Positions 6,693-31,235 of a DNA stretch of 51,075 bases are shown here, one piece after another (the stretch's first letter is position 1; each line of letters opens with the position of its first letter). The DNA is from a phage, in the sequence record PZ871099.1; one strand, written 5' to 3'. Under the pieces are notes generated by a model. The model had not been told where the DNA came from, ran no database searches, and saw nothing but the letters and a program-made list of their open reading frames with translations. The position numbers and the translations under genes are program-made.

Positions 6693-6718
6693 CTAATAGC
6701 ATAAAAAAACATTGCACG

Positions 6719-6737
6719 TTTAACAAAAAGTGCTATC
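6719..6737 (-). promoter_or_regulatory. conserved intergenic motif copy (plus strand reads TTTAACAAAAAGTGCTAT)
   Basis: Upstream of the capsid gene. Confidence 0.5.
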
Positions 6738-9741: not shown

Positions 9742-10404
9742 ATGCACTTGCCTAATGGTTCTCAAATTTTCATCGGCGTTAATATGGGTGAGCCAATTAG
9801 CGCGACTCAAATCAGCAATGCTGATAATCCTGTTTTTACAACCAAAAACACTCAAAGCATCAAAAAAGGCGCTTATGTTCTTATTGAAACATCTTCTTGG
9901 GGAAAACTTGTTAGTCGAGTGCTTCGAGTTAAGGAAGTATCAGATAATGTAAGTGTTACTCTTGAGGGTGTTAGCACTAAAGATACAAACGTATTTCCAG
10001 AAGGACAGAACACAGCAACTTTCCGAGAAGTGAAATCTTGGGTAGAGGTTCCTTGCGTACAGGATCTTGCGCAGGACGGCGGCGAGCAACAGTATTACAC
10101 TTATCAGTGTTTGGCTGATGACCAGGAACAGCAGTTGCCGACCTACAAGAGCGCCGTTTTTCTTACCTATACTTTCGCGCATGAATATGATAATCCGATT
10201 TATCCGATCTTGCGCGAGGCTGAGGAATCCGGCGACGTAACCGCTTTGCGTATGTACGTGCCGAAAGCTAAAGAGATGCGTTGCTGGGCTGGCGTATTGT
10301 CTTTTAATGACATTCCGCAAACCACTATGAACGAAATGGAAACTGTTTCCCTTTCCGTATCTCTGAAAGGTCGATTCACGTTCTTACCTTCTGACGTTAA
10401 GTAA
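9742..10404 (+). CDS. major tail protein (putative)
   Basis: 220 aa, RBS AAGGAGG, strong terminator after it, directly upstream of the G/GT chaperone and tape measure. Confidence 0.55.
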   Translation: MHLPNGSQIFIGVNMGEPISATQISNADNPVFTTKNTQSIKKGAYVLIETSSWGKLVSRVLRVKEVSDNVSVTLEGVSTKDTNVFPEGQNTATFREVKSWVEVPCVQDLAQDGGEQQYYTYQCLADDQEQQLPTYKSAVFLTYTFAHEYDNPIYPILREAEESGDVTALRMYVPKAKEMRCWAGVLSFNDIPQTTMNEMETVSLSVSLKGRFTFLPSDVK

Positions 10405-10409
10405 AACAA

Positions 10410-10431
10410 GGGGCGTTGCGCCCCTTTTTTC
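10410..10431 (+). terminator. rho-independent terminator after the major tail gene
   Basis: GGGGCGttGCGCCCC plus TTTTTT. Confidence 0.8.
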
Positions 10432-10470
10432 ATTCCTGTAAAATCAATCTATCAAATAAATTAATTCCAC

Positions 10471-10490
10471 TTTTAACAAAAAGTGCTATA
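10471..10490 (-). promoter_or_regulatory. conserved intergenic motif copy (plus strand reads TTTTAACAAAAAGTGCTATAAGGAG)
   Basis: Abuts the RBS of the tail chaperone gene; contains TGcTATAAG. Confidence 0.5.
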
Positions 10491-10503
10491 AGGAGATCTT
10501 GAG

Positions 10504-10821
10504 ATGGCAAAGATGAAACTAACGTTAGGCCCACTGCCTGATTTTAAACTGCCTGTTTCTTTCGTGCTTCCAAATGGTGATGAGCAAGTTATTGTTTTCA
10601 CTGTGCGCCACAAGAAGGCAAGCGAGATTCACGAACGATACACGGCAGAAAAGCCGATGAGCGACGTAGAAATGATCACCTTCCTTGCTTCCGGTTGGGA
10701 TCTGGAAGATGAATTTAACGAGGAAAACGTTGCTAAATTGCTGGATTATTACCCTTCTGCGTCATTATCGCTGACTGGTCATTATATGAAAGCACTTGCG
10801 GGGCAGCGGGTAAAAAACTAA
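10504..10821 (+). CDS. tail assembly chaperone (lambda G-like)
   Basis: 105 aa, ends at slippery site A AAA AAC immediately before the stop; precedes tape measure. Confidence 0.7.
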   Translation: MAKMKLTLGPLPDFKLPVSFVLPNGDEQVIVFTVRHKKASEIHERYTAEKPMSDVEMITFLASGWDLEDEFNEENVAKLLDYYPSASLSLTGHYMKALAGQRVKN

Positions 10822-11138
10822 AGCGGGCGGTTTACCTGTTTTACCTCAAGCCGCCAACTGACGCACAATTAGAGGCCGTCGGCCTATCCCGTTCAGACTA
10901 CGAAGGGGAGGAGCCGCCGGAGGTAATTTTTGATGAATCAATGTTTCAATCTTGGGATCTGTTTTGCGCCATGCAGACGCAATGGAGATCGACTAGCGGC
11001 AGCGTGTATGGGTTCGACTATAACGTTTTGCCCATGCTTTTTGACATTTACAAGATTGATGATCGTGAGATGGCGCTAAATGATTTGCGCATCATGGAAC
11101 AAAAGGCGCTAGAAATGATTCATTCAAACAAAACATAA
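10504..11138 (+). CDS. tail assembly chaperone frameshift product (lambda GT-like, -1 PRF)
   Basis: The -1 frame from 10818 is open and continues into ORF 10941..11138 (frame checked base by base). Confidence 0.6.
10812..10818 (+). promoter_or_regulatory. -1 programmed ribosomal frameshift slippery heptamer AAAAAAC
   Basis: Codons GTA AAA AAC TAA; heptamer fits X XXY YYZ in the zero frame. Confidence 0.6.
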
Positions 11139-11159
11139 GCGCCGCGAGGCGCTTTTTTA
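11139..11159 (+). terminator. terminator-like hairpin after the GT frame
   Basis: GCGCCgcgaGGCGC plus TTTTTT. Confidence 0.6.
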
Positions 11160-11177
11160 ATATCTGGAGGTTTTAAA

Positions 11178-13859
11178 ATGGCTGAAAAATACGCTGGCCT
11201 AACGCTAGGCGTTGACGTGTCGCAGGTCAACAATGCTGTTAAATCATTGCAGCAATTCAAGAAGGCAAACGACGACGCAAAAAAAAGCGTTAATGAATTT
11301 GTTGATTCTGAGGTTGTTGCCCGACAGCAAGCAAAACAGCTTGCCGAAGAACTGGCGCGCCAGAAAGCAGAATTTAAGAAAATCCAGGAGTCAATTGATC
11401 CCACTGCATCAAAGATGGATAAGCTGCGAAAGGCAGCGACACAGCTTGATGCGCTATGGAAAAAGGGCGTTGTTCCTGATCAGACTTTTTTTGAGCTTGG
11501 GGCAATTCTTGAGACGCAGCAAAACAAGCTGATCGCAACCAAAAAAGCGATGACAGAGGAAGGTCGCGCGGCGCTTGAGGAATCAAAGAACAAGGCGCGT
11601 GCAGCGGAAGAGGCTAAAAAATTCATCCAGGCTTTGCGTGAGCAGGAAGAAGCAGCCGGAAAAAGCAAGTCTGAATTGCTGGAAATGAAAGCGGCACAGC
11701 TTGGAGTTAGCCAGGAGGCAGCACCTTACATCGCAAGGCTGAAAGAGCAGGAAAAGCAGATCCAGAAACTTGGGATTTCTACAGGCCAATACAAACAAGC
11801 AATGGCGCAATTGCCAATGCAGATCACAGACGTGGTGACTTCACTTGCTTCTGGTATGCCCGTTTGGTTGGTCGCAGTCCAGCAGGGTGGACAGATCAAG
11901 GATTCTTTTGGTGGCGCATCCAATGCTTTAAAAGCGTTGCTATCTTTCCTGAATCCGGTAAACGTGGCGTTTGGTTTGCTTTCCGGCACGCTGGCAATTG
12001 CTGCATATAATGCCCACAAAGCACAGACAGAGCTTGAAGCAATTAAAAAAACCGTTCAGGAAACAACTGGCTTGAGTGGTGAGTTTGCCGAAAAGATTGC
12101 TATAGGAATCCAGGAGCTTTCCGACAAGACAGGCGAAAGCGCCGAAGATCTGGCAAAGGCTTACATCACCACGAAAGACGGCGCGAGCGAGGCGATTAAA
12201 AAACTGGTTGACGTTGGAATGACTTATGATGACGCGAAAAAGAAAGTCAACGAGTACAAGGGCGCGTCTAGCTTTGTCAGCTTGAATAACGAAATTGCAA
12301 ACCACAAAAACAAAGTCCTTGAGTTGGGCGAGTCGTGGTATGAAGTTTTGAAAGCTAAGCGTGATTACGCTTCCCCGTCCGGCGGCCTGTTAGGTAAAGA
12401 GCTTGGCTATGTTAATCCTATGCTTAAGTTTGCACTTAACACTTATGAAGACATTGGAAAGGTCGTAAAAGATGCGAATAAGGACATGGCGGAGCGAGCG
12501 GAGCGAATCGACAAAGAAAACCTGTCATTAAACAGAGTGAGAGCGGCGCAAGAGGCTTTAAACAAAGCCATTGAGGATCAGAAGGGCGTGGCGCGTTCGG
12601 CTGATGAAGAACTGAAAAAGCGCGCGGCTGAAAACGTGGAGTTCAGACGCAAAGAGCTTGAGGAGATCAAGAAGCAGGAGCAGAAAAAGAAAGAGGCTAA
12701 AGGGGGAATAGTTCGCGGCCCTACTGAGCAGCTTGATAAAGAGTTGTACGTTTTAAAAGCGCAACTGGAAACTCTTAAAGAGCATCGCACTGTTAACGAT
12801 GTTATTTCTCGCCAGCGTAAATCTTTATGGAGCATCGAAAAGCAAATCGAGATCCTGGAGAATGCGCAGAGCAAGCGTAAATTGACCGGAGCGGAACAGG
12901 CGCTACTAAACGAGCAAAAAGCCGTTCTTGAAATGGCAAGACAAAAAGCGGAGCTAGGGGATCAGATTGTTTTGCAGGAGCGCAAAAACAAGCTGGAGCA
13001 AGATAGTCTTAAGTTTATCCGTGAAACGGAGGCGGCTATTGATGCGATTGGCCTTAAGCAACTTGGCTACACTGAAAAGCAGATCGAGCGTGAGCTAGAG
13101 TTGCGCAAGCTGCGCACCGACTACGAGGCGCAAGGCGGAAGCGTTAGCGACGAAGTTTTTCAGCAAATGGAGACGAAACTTAAGCTGTATTACCAGGCAC
13201 AAGACGAGGCGCAAGGCAACTGGTTAGCCGGAGCAAAGAACGCATGGGAGCTATTCGCGGAAGATGCAAACAATGCCTATGGCAATGTTCAGCAGATCGC
13301 AAGCGAGGCGTTAAACGGCCTTACAAACCAATTAGCGAATTTTATCGCTACTGGCAAGGCAAACTTTAAAGACTTCTCGACTGCTATCATCAAAATGATT
13401 ATTCAGATGATCACGAAAATGGTTGTCTTTAATGCGTTATCTGGCCTGATGGGTGGTCAAACCTGGACGATGGGGAGCTTGCTTAAGAATATTGGCGGAT
13501 TTGCTGGCGGTGGATACACTGGCGACGGCGGGAAGTATGAGCCAGCCGGAATTGTTCATAAGGGTGAATTTGTCATGACGAAGGAGGCAACGCAGCGTAT
13601 CGGAGTAGGCAACTTGTACCGCATGATGCGAGGCTATGCTAACGGCGGCGTTGTTGGTGGTTCCGGCTATACTGGCGGTGGCACTGTCACTGGTGGAGCA
13701 CCTCAATTTAACATCGGTGGGATTGATGTTAGCATCAATAACGGCAATGATCCGAAGGGTATCGAAACTGGTGTTAAGATGATCTTTACTGATATGATTA
13801 GACGTTCCTGTATGCAGGGCGGGGAGGTTTACGAATTTGTTATGAGCAAGCGAGGTTGA
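11178..13859 (+). CDS. tail tape measure protein
   Basis: 893 aa, extensive coiled-coil, Gly-rich C-terminal region, directly after G/GT. Confidence 0.9.
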   Translation: MAEKYAGLTLGVDVSQVNNAVKSLQQFKKANDDAKKSVNEFVDSEVVARQQAKQLAEELARQKAEFKKIQESIDPTASKMDKLRKAATQLDALWKKGVVPDQTFFELGAILETQQNKLIATKKAMTEEGRAALEESKNKARAAEEAKKFIQALREQEEAAGKSKSELLEMKAAQLGVSQEAAPYIARLKEQEKQIQKLGISTGQYKQAMAQLPMQITDVVTSLASGMPVWLVAVQQGGQIKDSFGGASNALKALLSFLNPVNVAFGLLSGTLAIAAYNAHKAQTELEAIKKTVQETTGLSGEFAEKIAIGIQELSDKTGESAEDLAKAYITTKDGASEAIKKLVDVGMTYDDAKKKVNEYKGASSFVSLNNEIANHKNKVLELGESWYEVLKAKRDYASPSGGLLGKELGYVNPMLKFALNTYEDIGKVVKDANKDMAERAERIDKENLSLNRVRAAQEALNKAIEDQKGVARSADEELKKRAAENVEFRRKELEEIKKQEQKKKEAKGGIVRGPTEQLDKELYVLKAQLETLKEHRTVNDVISRQRKSLWSIEKQIEILENAQSKRKLTGAEQALLNEQKAVLEMARQKAELGDQIVLQERKNKLEQDSLKFIRETEAAIDAIGLKQLGYTEKQIERELELRKLRTDYEAQGGSVSDEVFQQMETKLKLYYQAQDEAQGNWLAGAKNAWELFAEDANNAYGNVQQIASEALNGLTNQLANFIATGKANFKDFSTAIIKMIIQMITKMVVFNALSGLMGGQTWTMGSLLKNIGGFAGGGYTGDGGKYEPAGIVHKGEFVMTKEATQRIGVGNLYRMMRGYANGGVVGGSGYTGGGTVTGGAPQFNIGGIDVSINNGNDPKGIETGVKMIFTDMIRRSCMQGGEVYEFVMSKRG

Positions 13860-14274: not shown

Positions 14275-15036
14275 ATGGCTAATAAAGAATCAGGTAGAGT
14301 TGAATTTGAGAACTGCCTACAAAGTTTATACCCAGGCGAAATTATAACGCTCGTAGAGATTGATGGGACGAAGTTCGGAGCAAGTATTTACCGATTTCAC
14401 AATGAGAACATCTCTTATACTGCCGAAGAATTAATGCAAGCGCAGCAAACCGGAATCTTGCCGCCGAAAGATATTATTTTTCAGGGTGAGGTTTACGGAG
14501 CGCGGCCTTTCGGTGTGAGCGGGATTAACTTCACAAGTAACGGCAGGGCAGATAAGCCTCAGCTTATAGTGTCAAACCTTGACAGCAGGGTTAGCGCCAT
14601 GATCAGAAATTACAATGGCATGATGCAAGCAAAGGTGACTTTCTGGATTACGGCAAAGGAATTTATAGGAGAAGGCGGAGCAATCAAAGATGGCGCTTAC
14701 AGAAAATTGGTTTATTACATTGAGCGCCCAAGCCAGTATAATAGAGAGGTGGCGAAATTTGATCTGACATCGCCTTACGATATGGATGGATTAATGATCC
14801 CGCCGCGCATCACTCAAAGCGTTTGCTATTGGGCGCAAAGGGGGTGGTACAGGAGCGGAAAGGGTTGCTCTTATAACGGATCGGCAATGTTCGATAAAGA
14901 CAATAAGCCAGTAACAGATCCATCACAAGACTATTGCGCCGGAACTGTAACGGCTTGCAAATTGAGATTCGGTCAGCAAAACGAGTTGGATTTCGGCGGT
15001 TGCGCGGTGGCGTCACTGCTACGGAGGAATCAATAA
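14275..15036 (+). CDS. minor tail protein (lambda L-like)
   Basis: 253 aa; C-terminal cysteine cluster as in gpL-type proteins; position. Confidence 0.6.
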   Translation: MANKESGRVEFENCLQSLYPGEIITLVEIDGTKFGASIYRFHNENISYTAEELMQAQQTGILPPKDIIFQGEVYGARPFGVSGINFTSNGRADKPQLIVSNLDSRVSAMIRNYNGMMQAKVTFWITAKEFIGEGGAIKDGAYRKLVYYIERPSQYNREVAKFDLTSPYDMDGLMIPPRITQSVCYWAQRGWYRSGKGCSYNGSAMFDKDNKPVTDPSQDYCAGTVTACKLRFGQQNELDFGGCAVASLLRRNQ

Positions 15037-15767
15037 TGATTAGTGCAAAAATTAAACTTGAAATAATGCAGCACGTTAAAGAGGAATACCCTAAAGAGGC
15101 TTGCGGTGTCATAACTCAAAAGTCACGGGTACAGAAATATCACCGCATAACCAACGTGCATGATGATCCAGAAAATCATTTTGAAATGGACGCCGTAGAA
15201 TACGCTGAATCGCTCGACAAAGGCGAATTAATCGCGGTGGTGCATTCCCATTGCGGGGATGGTGCTAGCACGATACCGAGCGCGCACGACTCATGTATGT
15301 GCGATGAAATGGGTGTGTCGTGGATTATAGTGTCATGGCCAGAAGGTGATATGAGAATTGTCGAGCCGCAGGAGAGGCCGCTTATCGGTCGCCCGTGGTC
15401 GCTGGGGTCGTTCGATTGCTGGGGTCTTATCATGGCATGGCATAAACAGCACGGAGTAGTATTGAATGACTTCCGAAAGCCTTACGAGTGGTGGAAGTCA
15501 GAATATGGTGAAAATCTTTACCAGGATAATTATTTGAAAGAGGGATTTGTTGAAACTAACGAGCCTCCAAAACCTGGTGATATGGTGATTATGCAGCTAT
15601 CATCGCCAGTCTGGAATCATGCGGGGATTTATTTGGGTAACAATCAGCTATTACATCATGCGTTTGGAAAGCTATCTCGCATTGACTTGTATTCTGGATG
15701 GTATCAGGAGCACACTGTAAAAATTTGCCGACATAAGGATCTGAAATATGACATTGAAAGTAATTAA
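15037..15767 (+). CDS. tail assembly protein (lambda K-like, MPN/JAB + NlpC/P60)
   Basis: JAMM-like HSH...S..D segment (VVHSHCGDGASTIPSAHD) and NlpC/P60-like Cys (FDCWGLI); start at MISAKIK. Confidence 0.7.
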
Positions 15768-16344
15768 GCTATCTGGTTCCCTGGGGCGTAGATTTGGCGT
15801 CTTTCACAAAATGGCGGTTGACTCATACCCCGAAGCAATACGCGCGTTATCTTCCCAGGTTGAAGGGTTCAAAGACTACATGCAAAGCGAAGTTGGATCG
15901 CGCATGAAGTATGCTATATTCGTTGACGGTAAAAACATTGGTCAGCATGATGAAAAATCATGGAAGTGCGCGCGAGAGGTTAGAATAGTTCCTGTTCCAA
16001 CTGGTTCTAAGTCCGGCGGCCTGTTCAATGTTGTTTTTGGTGCTGTAATTATGGCTACTGCGTTCATTACTGGCGGTGCAAGCCTGGCGGCTATGGGCGC
16101 TTTTGCATCTTCCGCATTTATGATGGGTGGTGCTATCGCGCTTGGCGGTGTCATGCAAATGATCTCTCCGCAGCAGGGCGGAATGAAACTGCAAAGCCAA
16201 TCAGCAGAAAACAAGCCTTCTTACGCTTTCGGCGGTGCAGTAAATACCACGGCGGCAGGCTATCCGGTTCCTTTGCCATATGGATATAGGACAGTAGGCG
16301 GCGCGATCTGGTCGGCTGGCAGCTACGCAGAGGACAAAGCATAA
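15748..16344 (+). CDS. tail assembly protein (lambda I-like)
   Basis: 198 aa, Gly/Ala-rich hydrophobic C-terminal half, position between K-like and J-like. Confidence 0.55.
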   Translation: MTLKVIKLSGSLGRRFGVFHKMAVDSYPEAIRALSSQVEGFKDYMQSEVGSRMKYAIFVDGKNIGQHDEKSWKCAREVRIVPVPTGSKSGGLFNVVFGAVIMATAFITGGASLAAMGAFASSAFMMGGAIALGGVMQMISPQQGGMKLQSQSAENKPSYAFGGAVNTTAAGYPVPLPYGYRTVGGAIWSAGSYAEDKA

Positions 16345-16364
16345 ATAGCACAATATGTTAAAGC
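16344..16364 (+). promoter_or_regulatory. conserved intergenic motif copy, degenerate (AATAGCACAATATGTTAAAG)
   Basis: Starts at the stop of the I-like gene, upstream of the HNH gene. Confidence 0.45.
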
Positions 16365-16405
16365 GAAAACGGATTTTCGCTTTACAATTAATTAAGGAGG
16401 TGATC

Positions 16406-16882
16406 ATGTGGCGTGATATTTTTTATTATAATGACGGTAAGTTATTTTGGGCTGTAGACGTAGGAAGAAGGATAAAGAAAGGAAGTGAGGCAGGAAGCGT
16501 AAGCAAAAGCAAGAAGAGTGGAGAAAGGGTTAGAATATCAATTGATGGAGAAAGATACTACAGGAGCAGGATAGTTTGGGAAATTCATAATGGAGAAATA
16601 CCGCATGGAATGCAAGTTGATCACATAGATCACAACACAATGAACGACAATATTTCAAACTTAAGACTTGTTAGAATGAGTGTTAACAACAAGAATAAGT
16701 CGCTTTACAGGAACAGCAAGACGGGAATTACTGGGGTAAACTTTAGTCGCGGAAAATGGATTGCAAGAGCAAAGATTGATGGTGTTAGGCATGAATTTTA
16801 CTTTGATTCATTTCAGGATGCGGCAGAAAAGAGGATAGAGATTGAAGTTTTAAACAAATTCCACATAAACCACGGAAAGTAG
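16406..16882 (+). CDS. HNH homing endonuclease with AP2-like DNA-binding domain
   Basis: HNH segment DHIDHNTMNDNISNLRLV; AP2-like GVNFSRGKWIARAKIDGVRHEFYFDSF; flanked by terminators; RBS AAGGAGG before ATG 16406. Confidence 0.7.
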   Translation: MWRDIFYYNDGKLFWAVDVGRRIKKGSEAGSVSKSKKSGERVRISIDGERYYRSRIVWEIHNGEIPHGMQVDHIDHNTMNDNISNLRLVRMSVNNKNKSLYRNSKTGITGVNFSRGKWIARAKIDGVRHEFYFDSFQDAAEKRIEIEVLNKFHINHGK

Positions 16883-16888
16883 ATTTAA

Positions 16889-16911
16889 CCAGCATTGCGC
16901 TGGTTTTTTTG
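16889..16911 (+). terminator. rho-independent terminator after the HNH gene
   Basis: CCAGCattGCGCTGG plus T7. Confidence 0.75.
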
Positions 16912-16959
16912 TGCCTTTATAATGTGCAAACCAAGAAACAGCACAAAGGGTTAAAAGTC

Positions 16960-19900
16960 ATGGCTAAATATATGATAAGCGGCAGTAAGGGCGGAAGCAA
17001 AAAGCCATACGTGCCAAAAGAGATGGAAGATAACCTGATCTCGATAAACAAGATTAAAGTTTTGCTGGCTGTATCTGATGGCGAGTGCGATCCAAATTTC
17101 ACGTTGCGCGATCTTTATCTTGATGATGTTCCGGTTATTGCCAGCGATGGCACTGTTAACTACGAGGGAGTTACGGCTGAATATCGACCAGGTACGCAGA
17201 CGCAAGATTACATCCAGGGGTTTACTGACACATCAAGCGAGGTGACAGTTTCGCGAGATATTACAGCAGACAATCCCTATATTATCTCTGTAACAAACAA
17301 AAATCTTTCCGCAATCAGAATCAAGATTCTGATGCCAACTGGCATAAAGCAGGAGGATAACGGCGATCTTGTTGGTGTAAGGGTTCAATATGCCGTAGAT
17401 ATGGCTGTTGATGGCGGTTCTTATAGCGAGGTTATGAGAGATGTAATTGACGGCAAGACAAGATCAGGATATGACCGCAGCAGAAGGATTGATCTTCCTA
17501 AGTTTGATGAGCGCGTTTTAATCAGGGTCAAGCGACTGACTCCAGACAGCACATCTTCAAAGGTGACTGATAAAATCAAACTGCAAAGTTACGCTGAGGT
17601 TGTGGATGCAAAATTCCGTTATCCTCTGACTGGCCTTGTATTCGTAGAATTTGACAGCGAATTGTTTCCTACGCAAATCCCTAACATTTCTATAAAAAAG
17701 AAATGGAAGATTATTAACGTGCCAAGCAACTACGATCCAATATCAAGAGAATATCACGGGTCATGGGATGGTACTTTTAAAAAAGCGTGGTCAAATAATC
17801 CTGCTTGGGTGCTTTATGATCTGGTAACGAATCAGCGTTATGGGCTTGACCAGCGAGAGCTAGGAATACAGATCGACAAGTGGAGCTTATATGAGGCAGG
17901 AGTTTACTGTGATCAGAAAGTTCCAGACGGTAAAGGCGGTACAGAGCCTCGCTACCTATGCGATGTTGTGATTCAGAATCAAGTTGAGGCTTATCAGCTA
18001 ATCCGTGACATTTGCTCAATCTTTCGCGGAATGAGCTTTTGGAATGGTGAGAGCTTATCAATCGTGATTGATAAGCCGCGCGATCCATCATACGTGTTTA
18101 CTAATGAAAACGTCATCAACGGTGATTTTCAGTACACAACCGCAAGCGAAAAAAGCATGTACACGCAGTGTAACGTGACGTTTGACGACGAACAAAACAT
18201 GTATCAACAGGACGTAGAGGGGGTTTTTGATACTGAGGCGGCATTACGATTTGGATACAATCCAACAAGCATTACAGCGATCGGGTGTACACGCAGGAGC
18301 GAAGCGAATCGTCGCGGTCGGTGGGTTTTGAAAACAAACCTTAGAAGCACTACTGTAAACTTTGCTACTGGACTGGAGGGGATGATTCCATCAATAGGTG
18401 ATGTGATTGCTATCGCCGATAATTTTCAGAGCAGCAACCTAACGTTAAACCTATCGGGCCGAGTGATGGAAGTTTCAGGATTGCAGGTTTTCGTTCCGTT
18501 TAAGGTTGATGCTCGTCCTGGTGATTTTATTATCATCAACAAGCCGGACGGCAAGCCAGTTAAGCGCACGATTTCAAAGGTGAGCGCAGACGGAAAAACC
18601 ATTGAGTTAAATATTGGATTTGGTTTTGATGTTAAGCCTGATACTGTTTTTGCGATTGACCGTACTGACCTTGCGTTGCAGCAATACGTTGTGACAACTA
18701 TCAGCAAGGGTGATGACGAAAATGAGTTTACCTATTCAATAACGGCTGTAGAGTACGATCCGAACAAATACGACGAGATTGATTATGGAGTAAACATTGA
18801 TGACAGGCCGACTTCAATTGTTCAGCCTGACGTAATGGCAGCGCCTGAGAACGTGCAAATCTCATCTTATTCTCGCGTCGTGCAGGGTGTCAGCGTTGAG
18901 ACTATGGTTGTGTCGTGGGAAAAAGTGCCTTATGCGTCACTGTATGAAATGCAATGGCGAAAAGGTGATGGCAACTGGCTGAATACGCCGCAGACAGCTA
19001 ACAAAGAGATAGAGGTAGAAGGAATTTATTCTGGTAACTACCAAGTAAGGGTTAGATCTGTTTCTGCAAGCGGTAACACTTCCCCGTGGTCAAAGATTGC
19101 AACCGCAACCCTGACAGGTAAAGTTGGCGAGCCAGGAGCGCCGATTAATCTTACAGCTTCTGATAATGAAGTTTTTGGCATTCGTGTTAAATGGGGTATG
19201 CCGGAAGGATCAGGCGATACGGCTTACATTGAGCTTCACCAATCGCCAGACGGAACGGTTGAAAACTCAAGCCTGCTTACGCTGATTCCATATCCTCAAT
19301 ATGAGTATTGGCATAGCACGTTACCAGCGGGTCAAGTTGTATGGTATAGAATCCGTAGCGTTGACAGGATCGGCAATGTTTCCGGCTGGACTGACTTTGT
19401 TCGCGGCATGGCGTCAGATGATGTTGAATCTGTTTTAGGCGACATTCTGGACAAGATTTTTGATACCGAAGCGGGTCAAGAAATCAAAGAGAACGCCATA
19501 GACAGTGCCAACAAAATCAAAGACCAGGCGCAATCAATCATCCAGAACGCATTGGCAAACGATGCTGATGTGAAATGGACGAGAGTACAAAACGGAAAGC
19601 GAAAGGCTGAATATGGTCACGCTCTTGAGCTTATCGCCAACGAAACGGAGGCGCGAGTAACTCAAATCGAAGAGTTAAAGGCTTCAATTGATGACGATAT
19701 AGTTTCAAGTATCAAAACCGTTCAGGAAGCGATTGCCAACGAATCAGAGACGCGAGCTACTCAAGTTCAGCAGCTTGATTCTAAATTTACGAAGGAAATA
19801 GACGGCGTAAAACGAGATACGGCTGCAAGCATTGGCGAGGTAAGGCAAACCATTACCAATGAATCAGAAGCGCGCGCTCAGGCCGTTCAGCAGCTTGACG

Positions 19901-20538
19901 CTAAGTTCACGAAAGAGATAAACGACCTTGACGGAGTTATCAAAACAGAAGTCGAGGCTAACATCTCAGAAGTGAAACAGGCGATCGCCAATGAGACAGA
20001 GGCAAGGGTTCAGGCTGACCAGGCTTTAACAGCTAAATTCGGAGACGTTGAGTCAGCACTAGCAGAAAAACTTGATTCGTGGGCTAACGTTGATTCGGTT
20101 GGCGCTAAGTACGCTATGAAATTGGGCCTTAATTACAAGGGGCAGAAGTACAGCGCAGGAATGGTAATGCAGCTATCGCAATCGTCGCAGGGGTTGATCT
20201 CACAAATCCTTTTCGATGCTAACCGATTTGCAATTATGACCAGTTCGGCAGGTGGCGTTTACACATTGCCGTTTGTAGTAGAAAATAACCAGGTGTTTAT
20301 CAACAGTTTGTTGGTGAAAAACGGGTCCATTACTAACGCAATGATTGGTAACGTGATTCAGTCAAATAACTTTGTTCAGAATCAGCAAGGATGGAGGCTT
20401 GATAAAAATGGTAACTTTGAGAACTACGGAACGAGAGCTGGGGAAGGAGCTACAAAATTCAATAACGAAGGCTTAAAAGTGAAAGATGCAAATGGACGAT
20501 TGAGAGTTGAGATAGGGAGAATAACCGGAAGTTGGTAA
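16960..20538 (+). CDS. tail tip / host specificity protein (lambda J-like)
   Basis: about 1190 aa after L/K/I; C-terminal tandem repeats; start moved to MAKYM at 16960. Confidence 0.8.
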   Translation: MAKYMISGSKGGSKKPYVPKEMEDNLISINKIKVLLAVSDGECDPNFTLRDLYLDDVPVIASDGTVNYEGVTAEYRPGTQTQDYIQGFTDTSSEVTVSRDITADNPYIISVTNKNLSAIRIKILMPTGIKQEDNGDLVGVRVQYAVDMAVDGGSYSEVMRDVIDGKTRSGYDRSRRIDLPKFDERVLIRVKRLTPDSTSSKVTDKIKLQSYAEVVDAKFRYPLTGLVFVEFDSELFPTQIPNISIKKKWKIINVPSNYDPISREYHGSWDGTFKKAWSNNPAWVLYDLVTNQRYGLDQRELGIQIDKWSLYEAGVYCDQKVPDGKGGTEPRYLCDVVIQNQVEAYQLIRDICSIFRGMSFWNGESLSIVIDKPRDPSYVFTNENVINGDFQYTTASEKSMYTQCNVTFDDEQNMYQQDVEGVFDTEAALRFGYNPTSITAIGCTRRSEANRRGRWVLKTNLRSTTVNFATGLEGMIPSIGDVIAIADNFQSSNLTLNLSGRVMEVSGLQVFVPFKVDARPGDFIIINKPDGKPVKRTISKVSADGKTIELNIGFGFDVKPDTVFAIDRTDLALQQYVVTTISKGDDENEFTYSITAVEYDPNKYDEIDYGVNIDDRPTSIVQPDVMAAPENVQISSYSRVVQGVSVETMVVSWEKVPYASLYEMQWRKGDGNWLNTPQTANKEIEVEGIYSGNYQVRVRSVSASGNTSPWSKIATATLTGKVGEPGAPINLTASDNEVFGIRVKWGMPEGSGDTAYIELHQSPDGTVENSSLLTLIPYPQYEYWHSTLPAGQVVWYRIRSVDRIGNVSGWTDFVRGMASDDVESVLGDILDKIFDTEAGQEIKENAIDSANKIKDQAQSIIQNALANDADVKWTRVQNGKRKAEYGHALELIANETEARVTQIEELKASIDDDIVSSIKTVQEAIANESETRATQVQQLDSKFTKEIDGVKRDTAASIGEVRQTITNESEARAQAVQQLDAKFTKEINDLDGVIKTEVEANISEVKQAIANETEARVQADQALTAKFGDVESALAEKLDSWANVDSVGAKYAMKLGLNYKGQKYSAGMVMQLSQSSQGLISQILFDANRFAIMTSSAGGVYTLPFVVENNQVFINSLLVKNGSITNAMIGNVIQSNNFVQNQQGWRLDKNGNFENYGTRAGEGATKFNNEGLKVKDANGRLRVEIGRITGSW

Positions 20539-20568
20539 AAAAAAGGGGGCATAGCCCCCTTTAATTTT
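20537..20568. terminator. bidirectional terminator between the J-like gene and the convergent minus cassette
   Basis: A-run, GGGGGCataGCCCCC, T-rich. Confidence 0.75.
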
Positions 20569-21181
20569 AATCATAGTGTGATGAATTTATAACCAAAACA
20601 GATGAAGCCGTGTAAATACCAACAGGACCAGAAGTTTGTGCAACCTGCCTAGATAAAGAATATACCCCGTTGCCATACGCGGCAGCTTGAGACTCAAATA
20701 TCATGAATCCACCTAAAGACGGATTACGCACAGAGTTTAAAGCTGTTAGTGATGGCATGATGGCGCAAGGGTATCCCAAGTTAACGTCAAAAGTGATCCC
20801 GCTTACAGATACAAGTTTTGCATCCAAAGGCTTCATCTTTCCATGATAAACCATCTCACCATTAGCATTATAAAAAGCTATTCCGTGACTACCAGGAGGA
20901 GTAACCATATTGCTAAAAGCATAAACAAATACCTCACCTTGATTGTCGGACTTTTCTATCTTTATTGCGTGCTTCCCACCATTATTAAACTGAGTAAATG
21001 CTATGTATGATTTTGATGTTAATCTTACAAAAAAGAAGCACGGTCTATTTATTGGTATAGAAGTATTAAAAACGGTTCCTGTTTTTGCTGATATTTTACC
21101 TTTATCTATAAGGTTAACAGGAGTGAAATCTGGACTTAACCACAATGATCCGTCTGGTTTTTTTATGCTCATCCCGTACAT
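20567..21181 (-). CDS. hypothetical protein (candidate receptor-binding or tail accessory protein)
   Basis: about 204 aa from ATG 21181 (track start 21193 is TTG); last gene of a three-gene minus cassette ending at a bidirectional terminator. Confidence 0.3.
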   Translation of the reverse strand: MYGMSIKKPDGSLWLSPDFTPVNLIDKGKISAKTGTVFNTSIPINRPCFFFVRLTSKSYIAFTQFNNGGKHAIKIEKSDNQGEVFVYAFSNMVTPPGSHGIAFYNANGEMVYHGKMKPLDAKLVSVSGITFDVNLGYPCAIMPSLTALNSVRNPSLGGFMIFESQAAAYGNGVYSLSRQVAQTSGPVGIYTASSVLVINSSHYD

Positions 21182-21183
21182 TA

Positions 21184-21462
21184 TTACCCCCAAAAAGTAT
21201 ATATATATCTTGAGTCAGATCCAGAAAGTCCGCTCCATGTAACGGTATCACCACTTACACCTAAACTTGGAGCGCCAGGATCTCCTCCGCGCCACGAATT
21301 CATTCCAACATATATTGCTTTCAACGACTTACCTGGCGGCCTGTTTGAGTAGGTCTTACTGCCAGATGATTGAGTAAATTTATCCAAGAAAAAAACTGGA
21401 GTTAAAAGGCCAGTAACATTTCTACCTTGCTCATCATATATTGCATACCCATATTCAGCCAT
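21184..21462 (-). CDS. hypothetical protein
   Basis: 92 aa; shares G(Y/I)A(I/F)Y motif with the downstream gene; stop 2 nt before the next ATG. Confidence 0.3.
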   Translation of the reverse strand: MAEYGYAIYDEQGRNVTGLLTPVFFLDKFTQSSGSKTYSNRPPGKSLKAIYVGMNSWRGGDPGAPSLGVSGDTVTWSGLSGSDSRYIYTFWG

Positions 21463-21736
21463 TTTTGCACCTCAAATCAATGAATTTTCTTTCATCTTGC
21501 CAACGGTTGATAAATTTAACTTCTTTATTGTCAACGCTCAACCTGTATTGCTTTTGGCTGAATCTGTTTTCGCGTACCGCATTAATTTTAACTTCATGGA
21601 ATCCGTTAACAGGGAATGTTTTAACGTTAAATTTTGCCGTGCAATCGATCTCCTTGAAGTTGCCAGTAGGCGAAGAAGAACATCCGGTCAGGGCGGCTAC
21701 GGTGGCGATAACTGCGATTAATTTTTTCATCTTCAA
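21455..21736 (-). CDS. lipoprotein (candidate Cor/Llp-like superinfection exclusion protein)
   Basis: Signal peptide with lipobox LTGC (MKMKKLIAVIATVAALTGCSS); own upstream motif copy. Confidence 0.5.
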   Translation of the reverse strand: MKMKKLIAVIATVAALTGCSSSPTGNFKEIDCTAKFNVKTFPVNGFHEVKINAVRENRFSQKQYRLSVDNKEVKFINRWQDERKFIDLRCKNG

Positions 21737-21787
21737 TACTCCTTAGTTGTTGTTGGCTGTAACTATACACGATCCGGCAAGCCGAGT

Positions 21788-21806
21788 TTAGCAAAAAGTG
21801 CTACTT
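21788..21806 (-). promoter_or_regulatory. conserved intergenic motif copy, degenerate
   Basis: Minus strand reads AGTAGCACTTTTTGCTAAAC, then TATAGT, upstream of the lipoprotein gene. Confidence 0.5.
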
Positions 21807-22231: not shown

Positions 22232-23287
22232 ATGAGTGATTTTAACGCCTATACTAGCGAAGAAATGAGCAATGAGCTTTATCATGATCCTAACGCGTGG
22301 ACGGCTGAATACGTCAGCGGTTCCAGCTTGGCGGAGATTTACAGCACTTGCCCGGCGTACTGGAAGTACAAGCCTCGCCAGGAAACCAAAGCACTTGTTT
22401 TCGGTACGCAGTCGCATACCAATTTTGAAAGCAAGGAGTTATTCGAAAAAACATATCGCCGCGCACCGTCGCAGGATGATTTTAAAGATCTGATCACAAG
22501 TCAAACGGCGTTGGCCTCAAAGCTGAAATCTTTTGGCCTGAAAGGTACGACGGGTAAGCAATACCCCGAATTGCTGGAAATGCTGTACAAGTGCGGTGAG
22601 GATCTCAATGTATGGTGGCTTATCGAAATGATGGCAGAATGCCAGGCCGCAGCGGACGGCGTGCAGCTAATCGACGCGAAAGATTATGATGCCTGTGTAG
22701 CGATGCGGCGCGTACTTGAGGCAATACCTGAGCATAATGCTTGCATGAATAGCCCAACCGCGCAGCGTGAAATGTCAATATTCGGGATCATCAATGGCGT
22801 AAAAGTTAAAGTGCGCCTTGATCACGTTGACGTAAACAAGGATGTAAAGGCCACAATCATTAACGGTTACGACGAAAAAGGCCGACCGATTTATGAAGAA
22901 GTCATCTATCCAGAAGCTGTGATTATCACTGACTATAAAACAACGGTTAGCGCAAATCCTGTTGACTTCCAGCGCCTGGCTTACAATCACGGCTATTATC
23001 TCAAAATGGCTTTGCAGCATGATTTATTTAAAAAGGCGTATCCAGACGAGGAAAGACCAGTAATTGTGAGATTGCTTGCTCAAGAGAAGAAAGAGCCTTA
23101 CTTGCCGCTCGCATTCCGCATGAACATTGAGCAATTGAAGATCGGGCGTATCCAGTACATGAGCGTGATCAACAAGTTCAACGTTTGCCAGCAGTTAGAT
23201 GAATGGCCTTCGTATGCAAACGGACAACCAGAAATTGATCTTGATACTCCTGATTGGGTCCGCGCTCAATTCAGGCAGTATCTATGA
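22232..23287 (+). CDS. PD-(D/E)XK family exonuclease (RecB/RecE-like)
   Basis: 351 aa; RecB-type motif III-like IITDYKTT; first gene of nuclease-annealase-SSB module. Confidence 0.55.
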   Translation: MSDFNAYTSEEMSNELYHDPNAWTAEYVSGSSLAEIYSTCPAYWKYKPRQETKALVFGTQSHTNFESKELFEKTYRRAPSQDDFKDLITSQTALASKLKSFGLKGTTGKQYPELLEMLYKCGEDLNVWWLIEMMAECQAAADGVQLIDAKDYDACVAMRRVLEAIPEHNACMNSPTAQREMSIFGIINGVKVKVRLDHVDVNKDVKATIINGYDEKGRPIYEEVIYPEAVIITDYKTTVSANPVDFQRLAYNHGYYLKMALQHDLFKKAYPDEERPVIVRLLAQEKKEPYLPLAFRMNIEQLKIGRIQYMSVINKFNVCQQLDEWPSYANGQPEIDLDTPDWVRAQFRQYL

Positions 23288-23348
23288 CAAACCAAACAAA
23301 TAGCTAAACTTTTATAATGGTTGGTGATATAATTCGCCAACCAGATAA

Positions 23349-24017
<669 letters not shown>

Positions 24018-24514: not shown

Positions 24515-24550
24515 AACAAAAAGCCCCGCATATGCGGGGCATTTTTATTT
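24515..24550. terminator. bidirectional terminator between ssb and the convergent tail fiber gene
   Basis: AAAAAGCCCCGCatatGCGGGGCATTTTT. Confidence 0.8.
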
Positions 24551-27163
24551 GAGATCAACAAGTTTTGCAACCATCGACTTTAATTCGTCAACCTCACTTC
24601 TTAGCGATCGCAATTCCTCCTCCTGCTCTTTGCAAACTTGCAATATGTATGCAGTTACCGCTGAGTAGTCAACTTGTAGAAATCTTTCCTTCCCAATAAG
24701 TTCGCTACCGTCTTTTGTTGGGCCATGCAATTGCTGATAATCCTCAAAAGAACTAATAGCCTCCGGCACAACCTCCATGATCTCTTGAGCTATAACTCCA
24801 GCATAAGGCATACCATCTTTCTTTAACGTGTATGTATACCCACTAACTTTCTCAAGACCTAGCCTTGCATTTTCAATTGGTTTAATGTCAGTTTTCAAAT
24901 CTCTGTCTGACCCCTGGTTAAATGCTGTTGCGTTCACAGGTCCGTTAACTTGCAGGTGTTTAGAGTTATTTGAGTTTAACTGAGCATAGAACACCCACCC
25001 AGGGCCGTTATCAAAACCCCACTCAATAACCGACGCCCTATCAGACCCGTTACCCCATAATTTGAATGTTGCAGGGTGCGACGAGTTGCCGTCGTTAAGC
25101 ATTTTGAAATACTTGCCACTCGGACGGTCGATCTCTAAACTTGCGGCCTGTACATATGCTTTCCCCGCGAAATTCTTAGTTCCGAGTACGACGCCGTCGG
25201 TGATCAATTCAACCTTAGAAGACGTGATGTTGTTCATAAACAGGGCGCCCGTTCCGGTGTCCTTCCCTAAAAACCAAAGACGCGTTCCTGCGGAGTTGTA
25301 CCCTGTTACATGCAGTGGTTGGTTGTTTGTTGACGCCGTTCCGTCGATACGAAAACCGCCATTGGCTGTTGTAACTTTAAGGCTGGGTACGGTCATAGCG
25401 AATGCGCCACTGGCCGCAAGGCCGTTATACGCGATCAGCTTGTTGTCATACGCAAACTCACCATTGTCGCGCATTTGTAGCACTTTCTGCGACGTCCTGT
25501 TGCGAATGCCAACATCAGATCCGCCAACAAACATCTCAACAATTCTAGACCCGCTTTTAGCTCTTACATAAGCATTAAATTCAGGAGATGACCCCGCGTT
25601 ATACAACTCGTACCATTGCGACCAGTTGCCAGTAGCAGCGTTACTAAGCCATCGCATAAAACGACGCCCGCTGCTGAATGTTGTATACGTCTGTATGCAG
25701 CTTTTAGGATCGTTAGCGCCAGTGCGCTGAACAAGTAGGCAGCCTGCCTCCTGAATGGGATAATTACGCTCCGGCGTTGCGCTGGCAGACGTGCTAGTAT
25801 AATAAAATCCAGCCTTATCGCCCTGAAGAACGTTAAGATCTTCGCTTACCAACGATGCCTGTCGCTCGTGCATTACCTGAAGGTTTTTTCTCGCTCCCTG
25901 GTCGTTCGATGCTCCTGTCCCGCCGTCCCCGATCGCCACGTCACCGTTAGCACCCAGCTTCGCCAGTTCAATAGCGCCCACATTTCCAGATGAGCCGTTA
26001 ATCGCGGCATTGTTTCCAGCGAAAACCTTCACGCGAGATGTCTGGTAGTCAACGTTAAACGCAAAAAATGTGTCACCAGCCCCGCCGCACACCCCTGGAC
26101 CATACCTGAACGGCGTCATCTCGCCAGAAGGGAACTGCGTAATATCATGGACGCGCCAGAATCCTCCTTTGACAGTATCGCGCAACCGCTTGAGCATATC
26201 CCTTACGCCAGTAGGCGCAGGTAATGTTACACCAGCATACGGCACTCTATTCTGAGCCTCTGAGCTTCCAGCAGCAGCCGCTGCGCGATCAGCCTCTGTT
26301 TTAGCCTTGTTTGCACTGTTTGCAGCATTAGTTTCAGATGTCTTGGCGTTTGTCTCAGAAGTCTTCGCGGCACTAGCCGAGTTAGCAGCATTAGTTTCCG
26401 ATGTTTTAGCCGCATTCTTACTTGCATTAGCTGCATTTTCAGATGCTTTGGCATTAGTTTCCGATGTTTTAGCAGCAGATGCAGAATTAGCAGCAGCAGC
26501 CTTGTTTGCGCTTGAGTTTGTCTCTGATTCCTTTGCGTTAGCTGCCGCGGCTGAAGCCTCATTCCTGAAATTTTCAGACTCGTATCTATACCTTTGGGCG
26601 TCTGTTTTGCTGGCATTTGCTGAAGTTTCAGATGCTTTTGCATTAGTTTCCGATGTTTTAGCCGCATTCTTACTTGCATTGGCTGCATTTTCAGATGCTT
26701 TGGCATTAGTTTCCGATGTTTTAGCGTTTGTTTCAGAAGTCTTTGCAGCACTAGCGCTTTGTTTTGCTGATTCAGCGCCTTGTTTCACCTGATTTACAAG
26801 ATCTTTCAACCCATCAAGATCGAAATCTCTAAAAAATTCAAGTGCGTCAGCGATCTCCGTTTCCTTGCTTTGATAGTAACGCAGTGTTTCCGCTACGTCC
26901 TGCGCCAGCCCGTCAACCGTTAACGAGTCATGAAGCAAGATCAGGTAATTTGTCTTTTGGACTGCCGCGCCGCCAGTAGTAATTGCGCGAATGCTTGTAT
27001 CGCTAATCACCTCTGTAATCACAGCAGCTTGCAAAGGTTGAGTAAGAAAGAAAATAGTTGCACCTGGGCGAATCAAGGTTAATTGCTCACGCCATTTTGT
27101 ATCGTAACCAGTTACATAACCTTGCGCGTCCATAGACGCTTGGCCTTGTCTGTAAATCGCCAT
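24545..27163 (-). CDS. tail fiber protein with C-terminal intramolecular chaperone (S74-like) domain
   Basis: About 870 aa; Ala/Ser/Thr/Asn-rich repeats ([21 protein letters not shown]...); C-terminal chaperone-like region (...[16 protein letters not shown]...); RBS AGGAGG before ATG 27163. Confidence 0.8.
26388..26725 (-). repeat. direct repeats inside the tail fiber gene (two 86-bp copies differing at one position, plus partial copies)
   Basis: Copies begin near 26388 and 26640 (GCATTAGTTTCCGATGTTTTAGCCGCATTCTTACTTGCATT...); encode the Ala/Ser/Thr/Asn-rich region. Confidence 0.8.
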
Positions 27164-27179
27164 TTGTAAAATCCTCCTA

Positions 27180-27200
27180 AATAGCACTTTTTGCTAATGA
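27180..27200 (+). promoter_or_regulatory. conserved intergenic motif copy, degenerate (AATAGCACTTTTTGCTAATG)
   Basis: Its complement TTAGCAAAAAGTGCTATTTAGGAGG abuts the tail fiber RBS. Confidence 0.45.
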
Positions 27201-30816: not shown

Positions 30817-31235
30817 TGGCTATAACTGATAAAGGCGATTATCTTGAGTTTTACGAAAGAGATCCAACCGACACTAGAAAGGAAGTTAATCACCAGATAG
30901 ATAGTTTTCAGTGGTTGACTTATGCTCATCCTTATTTGCTGGCGTGGCATACGGTAAACGAGAATGAGAAGTCTAAAGCAACGGCGATGATTGATCAGCA
31001 GTCCGGCTTGGTTAAGGGAGTAAGCGATTTCATCATCCTGATTGGTTTAAACGGAAAATACCCCTTTGCAGCGATTGAGATCAAACGAGTTAATAAATCA
31101 GGCAAGGGGAAAGCATCACCAGTCAGCGATGAACAAAAGGCTTTTTTGCGTCGAGTTCGCAGCTTAGGAGGATTCGCTGCGGTCGCCTACGGATTTAATC
31201 AGTTTAAGTTGGCTATTGAATACATGCTTAAATAG
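30816..31235 (+). CDS. VRR-NUC domain nuclease
   Basis: 139 aa; PD-(D/E)XK-like core GVSDFIILIGLNGKYPFAAIEIK...DEQKAFLRRVRSLGGFAAVAY. Confidence 0.65.
   Translation: MAITDKGDYLEFYERDPTDTRKEVNHQIDSFQWLTYAHPYLLAWHTVNENEKSKATAMIDQQSGLVKGVSDFIILIGLNGKYPFAAIEIKRVNKSGKGKASPVSDEQKAFLRRVRSLGGFAAVAYGFNQFKLAIEYMLK

What the first reader, a model, noticed from the sequence alone, without database searches (positions are those of the whole stretch)
16344..16911. Free-standing HNH/AP2 endonuclease inserted between tail genes with its own signals
A 159-aa HNH protein with an AP2-like DNA-binding domain sits between the I-like and J-like tail genes, preceded by a degenerate element copy and RBS and followed by a strong terminator. 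This self-contained layout is typical of homing endonuclease insertions and suggests a mobile gene that relatives may lack.
Basis: partly seen in the sequence, partly recalled or inferred. Interest (0 to 1): 0.45.

Follow-up and report, generated by a model that had tools for sequence, protein, structure and literature searches.

The report
Mobile HNH-AP2 homing endonuclease cassette
A small selfish nuclease gene with its own promoter-like signal sits between two tail genes of this T1-like E. coli phage, most close relatives lack it, and it looks like an ordinary homing endonuclease that has recently spread among these phages.

Summary

The gene lies in a 543-nt cassette (16345-16887) that replaces six bases (AAAAAT) between the stop codon of the lambda-I-like gene and that gene's terminator. 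Twelve database records (8 phages) carry the cassette, always at this site. Three records carry a copy gutted by a 323-nt deletion. About 44 records of close relatives have the empty site.

Carriers differ 15-fold less in the cassette than in the flanks (pi 0.002 versus 0.031). Presence is perfectly linked to only five SNPs within 15 nt of the junctions. That is the signature of recent site-specific homing.

The promoter-like box and the RBS travel with the cassette. The terminator does not: it is a compensated allele of the terminator already present in empty sites.

This is a well-supported new member of the known HNH-AP2 free-standing homing endonucleases. Cleavage activity and target site are inferred, not shown.

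The parts
16332..16335 (+). Left edge of the haplotype block. Two synonymous substitutions in the last codons of the I-like gene: GAG GAC in carriers, GAA GAT in empty-site phages.
   Evidence: Perfect association (r2=1.0) with cassette presence across 19 phages. Background levels return by 16305.
16345..16887 (+). Inserted cassette of 543 nt. It replaces AAAAAT of the empty site, between the gene I stop codon (16342-16344) and the terminator stem.
   Evidence: Alignments with tonijn, XY3 and other phages. The net size difference of 537 nt matches the BLAST spans of 3501 and 2964 nt. GC is 36.7% against 44.9% for the window.
16344..16364 (+). Degenerate copy (17/21) of the phage's repeated 21-nt box AATAGCACTTTTTGTTAAAAC. 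Its first base overlaps the gene I stop codon.
   Evidence: Twenty copies at <=4 mismatches in the window, against about 0.05 in shuffles. Absent from empty sites.
16360..16383 (+). Hairpin AAAGCGAAAA-CGGA-TTTTCGCTTT. It overlaps the 3' end of the box and fills most of the 18-nt spacer (16365-16382).
   Evidence: Predicted fold. Other copies of the module have different hairpins at the same position.
16383..16388 (+). -10-like hexamer TACAAT, exactly 18 nt after the box, as in the other copies of the module.
   Evidence: Register comparison of 21 module copies. Promoter function is inferred, not shown.
16394..16402 (+). Shine-Dalgarno sequence AAGGAGGTG.
   Evidence: Sequence. Two of the five variable sites of the cassette fall in the GGAGG core, at 16399 and 16400.
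16406..16882 (+). HNH-AP2 endonuclease ORF of 158 aa. Residues 1-50 form an N-terminal beta-rich region. The HNH_3 core is residues 51-95 (nt 16556-16690). The AP2-like domain is residues ~105-150 (nt ~16718-16855).
16887..16910 (+). Intrinsic terminator AACCAGC-ATTGC-GCTGGTT plus a T run. It is an allele of the gene-I terminator. The three carrier-specific bases are 16891, 16894 and 16901, and 16891/16901 form a compensated pair.
16497..16819 (+). Segment deleted in the relic copies of phages tonn and ityhuna. The deletion is 323 nt, shifts the frame, and removes the HNH motif and most of the AP2 domain.
22232..24014 (+). The phage's own recombination genes: a PDDEXK exonuclease (RecE/ExoVIII-like) and an ERF annealing protein. 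They are the presumed repair machinery for homing.
   Evidence: Pfam DUF3799 E=3.9e-13 and ERF E=1.1e-20. Relatives annotate them as exonuclease VIII and Erf. Their role in homing is inferred.

Best explanation
This is a free-standing homing endonuclease gene of the HNH-AP2 type. It sits in the intergenic spot between the lambda-I-like and J-like tail genes of a Warwickvirus.

Proposed mechanism, all steps inferred:
1. The cassette is transcribed from its own copy of the phage's repeated box/-10 module, and possibly also by read-through from the tail operon. It is translated from a strong SD.
2. In a cell co-infected with a relative that has the empty junction, the AP2-like domain recognises that site (...GAAGATAAAGCATAAAAAAATACCCGCCTTGCGCGGG...).
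3. The I-HmuI-like HNH core nicks or cuts nearby.
4. The phage's Erf/ExoVIII-type recombination system repairs the break from the cassette-bearing genome. This copies the 543-nt cassette together with roughly 15 nt of flank on each side.
5. Carrier genomes are protected because the insertion splits the site and five flanking bases differ.

Shown here: domain content, the insertion polymorphism, site constancy, low cassette diversity, very short linked flanks, and a decayed copy.

Not shown: cleavage, target identity, promoter activity, and super-Mendelian inheritance.
For: - Distribution: 12 records (8 phages) carry it at >=99.6% identity, always between I and J. All 6 metagenome contigs encoding P0001, a 99%-identical variant of this protein, show the same context. 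About 44 close records have the empty site.
- Diversity among the 9 carriers: pi is 0.0020 in the cassette against a median of 0.031. There are 5 singleton variable sites in the cassette against 28-68 in equal-sized flanking windows. Only windows overlapping the cassette reach this minimum in 12.5 kb.
- Linkage: r2=1 at only 16332, 16335, 16891, 16894 and 16901. Beyond them the highest value is 0.34, at 16260, and values return to background (<=0.16) within tens of bases.
- Decay: tonn and ityhuna keep the five linked bases but have a 323-nt frameshifting deletion.
- Composition: GC is 37.5% against 44.9% for the window, the lowest 2.3% of windows.
- Relatives elsewhere: homologs at ~42% identity sit at unrelated loci in other Drexlerviridae, for example between a regulator gene and the primase gene in AugustePiccard. 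A different HNH-AP2 gene occupies the same I-J gap on the opposite strand in a Hanrivervirus lineage.
- Literature: HNH plus AP2 is a published homing endonuclease architecture (PMC10448857 and PMC5714182, both citing Magnani et al. 2004).
Against: - No biochemical or genetic test of cleavage or of biased inheritance exists for this protein.
- Pfam AP2 does not recognise the sequence itself.
- These phages recombine heavily everywhere. Ordinary recombination could therefore move an indel between backgrounds without any nuclease.
- The sample of 20 genomes is small and partly redundant.
- Two carriers have substitutions in the SD core, so expression may already be decaying in some lineages.
- I-HmuI-type enzymes are nickases (from memory: Shen et al. 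2004), so a double-strand break is not assured.
Confidence: 0.8

Rival explanations
1. Passive indel. The gene entered once and is simply reshuffled among Warwickviruses by their general homologous recombination. The nuclease is now inactive, or does not target the I-J junction.
For: Flanks are highly mosaic throughout the 12.5-kb region, so recombination alone can uncouple the cassette from its background. Relics and SD mutations show that decay is under way.
Against: A passively segregating old indel should have accumulated divergence comparable to its flanks. Instead it is 15-fold less diverse and is the minimum of the region. Phages from Denmark, Germany, the USA and UK sea water carry it at >=99.6% identity. 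The catalytic motif is intact.
Confidence: 0.12
2. Competition weapon or domesticated nuclease. The enzyme mainly serves the phage by cutting genomes of co-infecting relatives (marker exclusion). Alternatively, the AP2 domain acts as a regulator of tail or early genes. In either case, spread of the gene would be a by-product of selection on the phage.
For: The cassette carries a copy of the phage's own regulatory box, which suggests integration into the phage programme. Homing endonucleases at boundaries of genetic exchange are discussed in PMC10448857.
Against: Most close relatives do without it, and some have lost it by deletion, so it is dispensable. Nothing distinguishes this reading from plain homing in the sequence data. 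Marker exclusion is itself a consequence of homing-type cleavage.
Confidence: 0.06
3. Packaging-associated HNH. The protein would be an HK97 gp74-like cofactor of terminase, needed for genome cutting.
For: Many siphoviruses encode an HNH protein that assists terminase (general knowledge).
Against: The gene lies about 14 kb from the terminase genes (1-2096 in the window; annotation of atuna). It belongs to the HNH_3/I-HmuI group with an AP2 domain. Most viable close relatives lack it.
Confidence: 0.01

Closest known systems
HNH-AP2 homing endonucleases (Magnani et al. 2004 family; 'IPA-HNH' HEGs of ICP1-like phages, PMC10448857)
   Same: N-terminal HNH nuclease with a C-terminal AP2-type DNA-binding domain. 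Free-standing small gene next to essential phage genes. Patchy distribution.
   Different: The HNH core here is a canonical Pfam HNH_3. The ICP1 examples are too divergent for that profile. This member is specific to the I-J tail-gene junction of Warwickviruses. Its nearest homologs are only ~41-45% identical.
I-HmuI (PDB 1u3e), an intron-encoded HNH homing endonuclease of Bacillus phage SPO1
   Different: I-HmuI is encoded inside a group I intron. Its C-terminal DNA-binding region does not align with this protein's AP2-like domain (the profile match ends at about position 117). Here there is no intron (no Rfam hit).
Free-standing HEGs of T-even phages (Seg and Mob proteins) and F-CphI of cyanophages
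   Same: Intergenic selfish genes that spread by cleavage of the gene-less allele and co-conversion of flanking markers ('intronless homing'). Carrier genomes are protected by sequence differences at the target.
   Different: Those enzymes are mostly GIY-YIG or other HNH subtypes. Their co-conversion tracts, measured in crosses, are often hundreds of bases (from memory). Here the fixed linked tract is only ~15 nt per side, and it comes from population data, not from crosses.

Membership tests
HNH_3 / I-HmuI group of His-Me finger endonucleases | Match to Pfam PF13392 above the gathering score | tested here: met
   57.5 bits against a cut-off of 24.8, E=1e-15, residues 51-95.
HNH_3 / I-HmuI group of His-Me finger endonucleases | Conserved catalytic and metal-binding motif (D-H ... 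N ... N) | tested here: met
   D72, H73, N85, N94 and N97 are invariant in 20 homologs. The motif aligns with VDHKDGNKDNN...NLR...N of 1u3e.
HNH_3 / I-HmuI group of His-Me finger endonucleases | beta-beta-alpha-metal fold | tested here: met
HNH_3 / I-HmuI group of His-Me finger endonucleases | Site-specific DNA nicking or cleavage | not testable with these tools
   Needs purified protein and substrate DNA.
AP2/ERF DNA-binding domain | Match of the sequence itself to Pfam PF00847 | tested here: not met
   No hit at E<=10 for the whole protein or for residues 96-158 alone.
AP2/ERF DNA-binding domain | Homology detectable at family level | tested here: met
   The profile of 20 homologs hits WRI1 at E=1.6e-4 and TEM1 AP2 at E=0.017. 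Eight of 20 homologs hit Pfam AP2, best E=2.6e-6.
AP2/ERF DNA-binding domain | Three-stranded antiparallel sheet packed on one helix | tested here: met
Free-standing homing endonuclease gene | Presence/absence polymorphism at one fixed site among close relatives | tested here: met
   12 records carry it, 3 carry the relic, and about 44 have the empty site. The position is always between I and J.
Free-standing homing endonuclease gene | Evidence of recent horizontal spread into different genetic backgrounds | tested here: met
   Cassette pi is 0.002 against a flank median of 0.031. Beyond the five linked SNPs, r2 is at most 0.34 and falls to background (<=0.16) within tens of bases of the junctions.
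Free-standing homing endonuclease gene | Co-converted or protective flanking differences at the target | tested here: met
   Five substitutions within 15 nt of the junctions are perfectly linked to presence. Whether they confer protection was not tested.
Free-standing homing endonuclease gene | Cleavage of the gene-less allele and biased inheritance in mixed infection | not testable with these tools
   Requires phage crosses and in vitro assays.
Intron-encoded HNH endonuclease | Gene lies inside a self-splicing intron that interrupts a host gene | tested here: not met
   The cassette is intergenic and the I and J ORFs are intact. No Rfam family reaches E<=1 in 15700-17200.
Terminase-associated HNH (HK97 gp74 type) | Adjacent to terminase genes and conserved in all relatives | tested here: not met
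   Terminase genes are at the start of the window, about 14 kb away. Most relatives lack the gene.

The most novel reading that the evidence does not exclude
The cassette may not be a bare nuclease gene. It may be a nuclease packaged with a captured copy of the host phage's own regulatory module: a 21-nt box, an 18-nt hairpin spacer and a -10-like hexamer. That module otherwise precedes the early and DNA-metabolism genes. If it is active, it would time endonuclease expression to the replication and recombination phase, even though the cassette sits in a late tail operon.

A second, only 42% identical HNH-AP2 gene has landed in the same I-J gap on the opposite strand in a sister genus. It carries a similar box variant. 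This would make the I-J gap a recurrent landing pad for this promoter-plus-nuclease unit.

The carrier-specific changes in the terminator stem (CCCGCC to CCAGCA) remove a GCC-like motif. They may define the AP2 recognition element and give a directly testable target.
Probability: 0.3. Interest if true: 0.4.

Novelty: new member of a known kind. Interest (0 to 1): 0.25.

Why it matters
The case has little general importance. It is a clean natural example of the homing endonuclease life cycle, with all stages present in one genus of easily grown coliphages: the empty site, the intact cassette and a decayed relic.

Three practical points follow:
- It offers a defined candidate target of about 40 bp for an HNH-AP2 enzyme. 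No structure or recognition code exists yet for the bacterial/phage form of the AP2 domain.
- It warns that the I-J junction should be masked in Warwickvirus phylogenies.
- People engineering tail-tip (J) genes of T1-like phages for host range should know that a site-specific nuclease gene sits immediately upstream in some strains.

Tried and rejected
- Pfam AP2 on the protein and on its C-terminal 63 residues at E<=10: no hit. The AP2 claim therefore had to rest on family-level and fold evidence.
- phmmer of the single sequence against PDB sequences: nothing.
- NCBIfam: nothing.
- Exact 36-mer of the gene in IMG/VR viral contigs: no match.
- Literature searches for 'Warwickvirus' with 'HNH', and the papers describing mar001J1 and the Danish Warwickviruses: no mention of this gene.
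- Does the promoter-like box accompany HNH-AP2 genes generally? No. The AugustePiccard homolog follows a terminator hairpin and has no box.
- Rfam scan for an intron or other RNA around the gene: nothing.
- A weak predicted hairpin covering the SD and ATG (z = -2.0 for the whole 86-nt stretch, which also contains the stronger spacer hairpin) was judged too marginal to interpret.
- The packaging-HNH and intron-encoded readings were rejected on position and distribution.

Full report
**What the window is.** The 3.5 kb around the finding is 97-98% identical to Escherichia phages vB_Eco_mar001J1, atuna, brachmannus and other members of the genus Warwickvirus (Drexlerviridae, Tempevirinae; T1/Rtp-like virulent coliphages). 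The local gene order is tape measure, M-like, L-like (14275-15036), K-like JAB/NlpC (15036-15767), I-like (15748-16344), the ORF in question, then the J-like tip protein (16960-20538).

**The observation.**
- The ORF starts at ATG 16406, preceded by AAGGAGGTG at 16394-16402. It ends at TAG 16880-16882, giving 158 residues.
- Pfam HNH_3 matches residues 51-95 at E=1e-15, well above the curated cut-off. PHROG 99 (HNH endonuclease) matches the whole length at E=4e-49.
- Pfam AP2 does not detect the sequence, even at E<=10. Three indirect lines support an AP2-like C-terminus:
  - A profile built from 20 homologs hits the plant AP2 proteins WRI1 (E=1.6e-4) and TEM1 (E=0.017) with its C-terminal positions, and I-HmuI (E=2e-9) with its HNH part.
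  - Eight of those 20 homologs hit Pfam AP2 on their own.
- The motif residues D72, H73, N85, N94 and N97 are invariant in the family alignment.

**The insertion.** Aligning the I-J junction of carriers and non-carriers shows two alleles.
- Empty allele: ...GAAGATAAAGCATAA-AAAAAT-ACCCGCCTTGCGCGGGTTTTTTT...
- Occupied allele: ...GAGGACAAAGCATAA-[543 nt, 16345-16887]-ACCAGCATTGCGCTGGTTTTTTT...
- The cassette therefore lies between the stop codon of gene I and the terminator that already closes gene I in empty genomes.
It is an allele of the resident one. Its stem changes are compensatory (16891 A pairs with 16901 T, where empties have C-G), and there is one loop change (16894).
- The promoter-like box, the spacer hairpin, the TACAAT hexamer and the SD are inside the inserted DNA.

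**Distribution.**
- A sensitive DNA search finds the cassette at >=99.6% identity in 12 records. These represent 8 phages: Kalemo, JLBYU10, JLBYU01, Phunderstruck, atuna, orkinos, brachmannus and mar001J1. They come from the USA, Denmark, Germany and sea water. The cassette is always between I and J.
- Six metagenome contigs encode P0001, a 99%-identical variant of this protein, and all have the same neighbours.
- Three records (tonn twice, ityhuna) retain the cassette ends and all five linked flank bases. They have lost 323 nt (16497-16819), which shifts the frame and removes the catalytic motif.
- The other roughly 44 records with 95-99% identical flanks have the empty site.
- Across the 843 more distant Drexlerviridae records matched, only these 15 cover the cassette.
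- The next protein homologs are at most about 45% identical and sit at other loci. One example lies between a regulator gene and the primase gene in AugustePiccard.

**Signature of movement.** I aligned 12.5 kb from the window, 8 carriers, 2 relic phages, 8 empty-site phages and BEK12A.
- The genomes are strongly mosaic. 500-nt bins differ from the window by 0 to more than 30 substitutions, in patterns that change from bin to bin.
- The cassette bin differs by 0-2 substitutions in every carrier.
- Among the nine carriers, pi is 0.0020 in the cassette against a median of 0.031 for 542-nt windows. The only windows as low are those overlapping the cassette.
- The cassette has 5 singleton variable sites. 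Four equal-sized flanking windows have 28-68.
- Association of biallelic flank sites with cassette presence is complete (r2=1) at five positions only: 16332 and 16335 (synonymous, in the last codons of I), and 16891, 16894 and 16901 (terminator). The highest value elsewhere is 0.34, at 16260, and values return to background (<=0.16) within tens of bases of the junctions on either side.
- The unit 16332-16901 has therefore entered many different backgrounds recently, taking about 15 nt of flank with it. This is what repeated homing with short co-conversion tracts would produce.
- An old, passively recombining indel should be about as diverse as its surroundings.
- Cassette GC is 36.7% against 44.9% for the window. 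The ORF alone (37.5%) lies in the lowest 2.3% of 477-nt windows, which is consistent with foreign origin.

**The 'element copy'.**
- The window holds 20 copies (<=4 mismatches) of AATAGCACTTTTTGTTAAAAC, against about 0.05 expected by chance.
- In register, most copies show a box, an 18-nt variable spacer that usually forms a hairpin, and a -10-like hexamer (CATAAT, TATAAT, TATATT and similar). Often a CATCGAAACGA-like leader follows, then an RBS.
- Orientation follows gene direction in the early and DNA-metabolism regions.
- The copy at 16344-16364 matches 17 of 21 positions and has the same geometry. TACAAT begins exactly 18 nt after the box, and the spacer holds a 10-bp hairpin.
- I infer that this is a promoter module that travels with the gene. 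No transcription data are available.

**A second occupant of the same gap.**
- In a Hanrivervirus lineage (seven records, deposited as 'Campylobacter phage' A113, E6 and others, unverified), the I-J gap holds a different HNH-AP2 gene. It is 42% identical in protein, lies on the opposite strand downstream of the I terminator, and is interrupted by an in-frame TAG.
- A box variant lies at the corresponding upstream position. It matches the window's HNH box at 17 of 21 positions.
- BEK12A has an unrelated 107-nt filler at this site.
- The gap therefore appears to be a recurrent insertion point.

**Mechanism.**
- The best-supported reading is a free-standing homing endonuclease, as set out in the best explanation.
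- The phage supplies a PDDEXK exonuclease and an ERF annealase (22232-24014) that could repair the break.
- I-HmuI-type enzymes nick one strand (from memory: Shen et al. 2004, cited in PMC5714182). The initiating lesion may therefore be a nick that replication converts to a break.
- The carrier-specific terminator bases change CCCGCC to CCAGCA. Because AP2 domains favour GC-rich sites (PMC10448857, citing Magnani 2004), this may be part of the recognition element. This is speculation.

**Comparison with known systems and novelty.**
- HNH plus AP2 is an established homing endonuclease architecture in phages, cyanobacteria and protists (PMC5714182; PMC10448857).
- GenBank records of relatives already annotate this ORF as 'HNH endonuclease'.
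- I found no published description of its polymorphism or its target.
- It is therefore a new, well-documented member of a known kind. Interest is low to modest (0.25).
- The only less routine aspects are the captured phage regulatory box and the recurrent use of the I-J gap.

Noticed in passing
window, about 20 sites, e.g. 31231-31251(+), 32301(+), 43460(+), 43923(+), 48948(+), 40802(-), 42106(-): A conserved module recurs upstream of early and DNA-metabolism genes, oriented with them. It consists of the 21-nt box AATAGCACTTTTTGTTAAAAC, an 18-nt spacer that usually forms a hairpin of varying sequence, a -10-like hexamer, and often a CATCGAAACGA-like leader. The box often abuts the TAA stop of the preceding gene. 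It is probably the phage's early or middle promoter or a regulator site. I found no description of it.
   Followed up: partly
window 6717-6737(-) and 10470-10490(-): Two copies of the same box lie antisense within the late structural operon. One is just upstream of the 323-aa ORF at 6783-7754 (major head protein by synteny with atuna). The other lies between the major tail protein ORF (9742-10404) and the tape-measure chaperone ORF (10504-10821). Their function is unknown.
   Followed up: no
L026 1162-1686 (-), Campylobacter phage A113 (Hanrivervirus) and 6 near-identical records: A different HNH-AP2 gene (42% aa identity) occupies the I-J gap on the opposite strand. It has an in-frame TAG after residue ~70, so it is a likely pseudogene or a sequencing error. 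These Drexlerviridae genomes are deposited as Campylobacter phages and flagged UNVERIFIED.
   Followed up: partly
L003 1846-2030 (BEK12A I-J gap); window-equivalent 10345-13800: BEK12A has an unrelated 107-nt filler at the I-J junction. Its tape-measure region is 25-50% divergent from the other Warwickviruses, while the L/K/I genes stay about 97% identical.
   Followed up: no
window 19345-21800: The C-terminal part of the J-like protein and the three small genes on the opposite strand downstream exist as at least two allele classes. They are about 11-30% divergent (55-132 differences per 500-nt bin), and the J gene is 3426 or 3579 nt long. The classes are distributed independently of the HNH cassette. 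This is a likely host-range/superinfection-exclusion module swap.
   Followed up: no
window 16399 and 16400: Two of the five variable sites in the cassette fall in the GGAGG core of its Shine-Dalgarno sequence. 16399 is G>T in mar001J1 and in both relic phages. 16400 is G>A in brachmannus. This hints at down-tuning or decay of expression.
   Followed up: no
window 16918-16923: A perfect TATAAT lies just after the I terminator and 37 nt before the J start codon. It is conserved in carriers and empty-site phages. It may be a separate promoter for J.
   Followed up: no
window 26283-26750 (inside the minus-strand ORF 24545-27187): Degenerate direct repeats occur with 21/42/63-nt spacing, six copies of a 111-nt unit at 60-89% identity. 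They lie in the large ORF on the minus strand, which by synteny with atuna is a tail fibre gene.
   Followed up: no
L004 1249-1972 (phage vB_EcoS_XY3): The I-like gene is annotated as two CDS (306 and 441 nt) in XY3. This suggests a frameshift or a sequencing error in that record.
   Followed up: no
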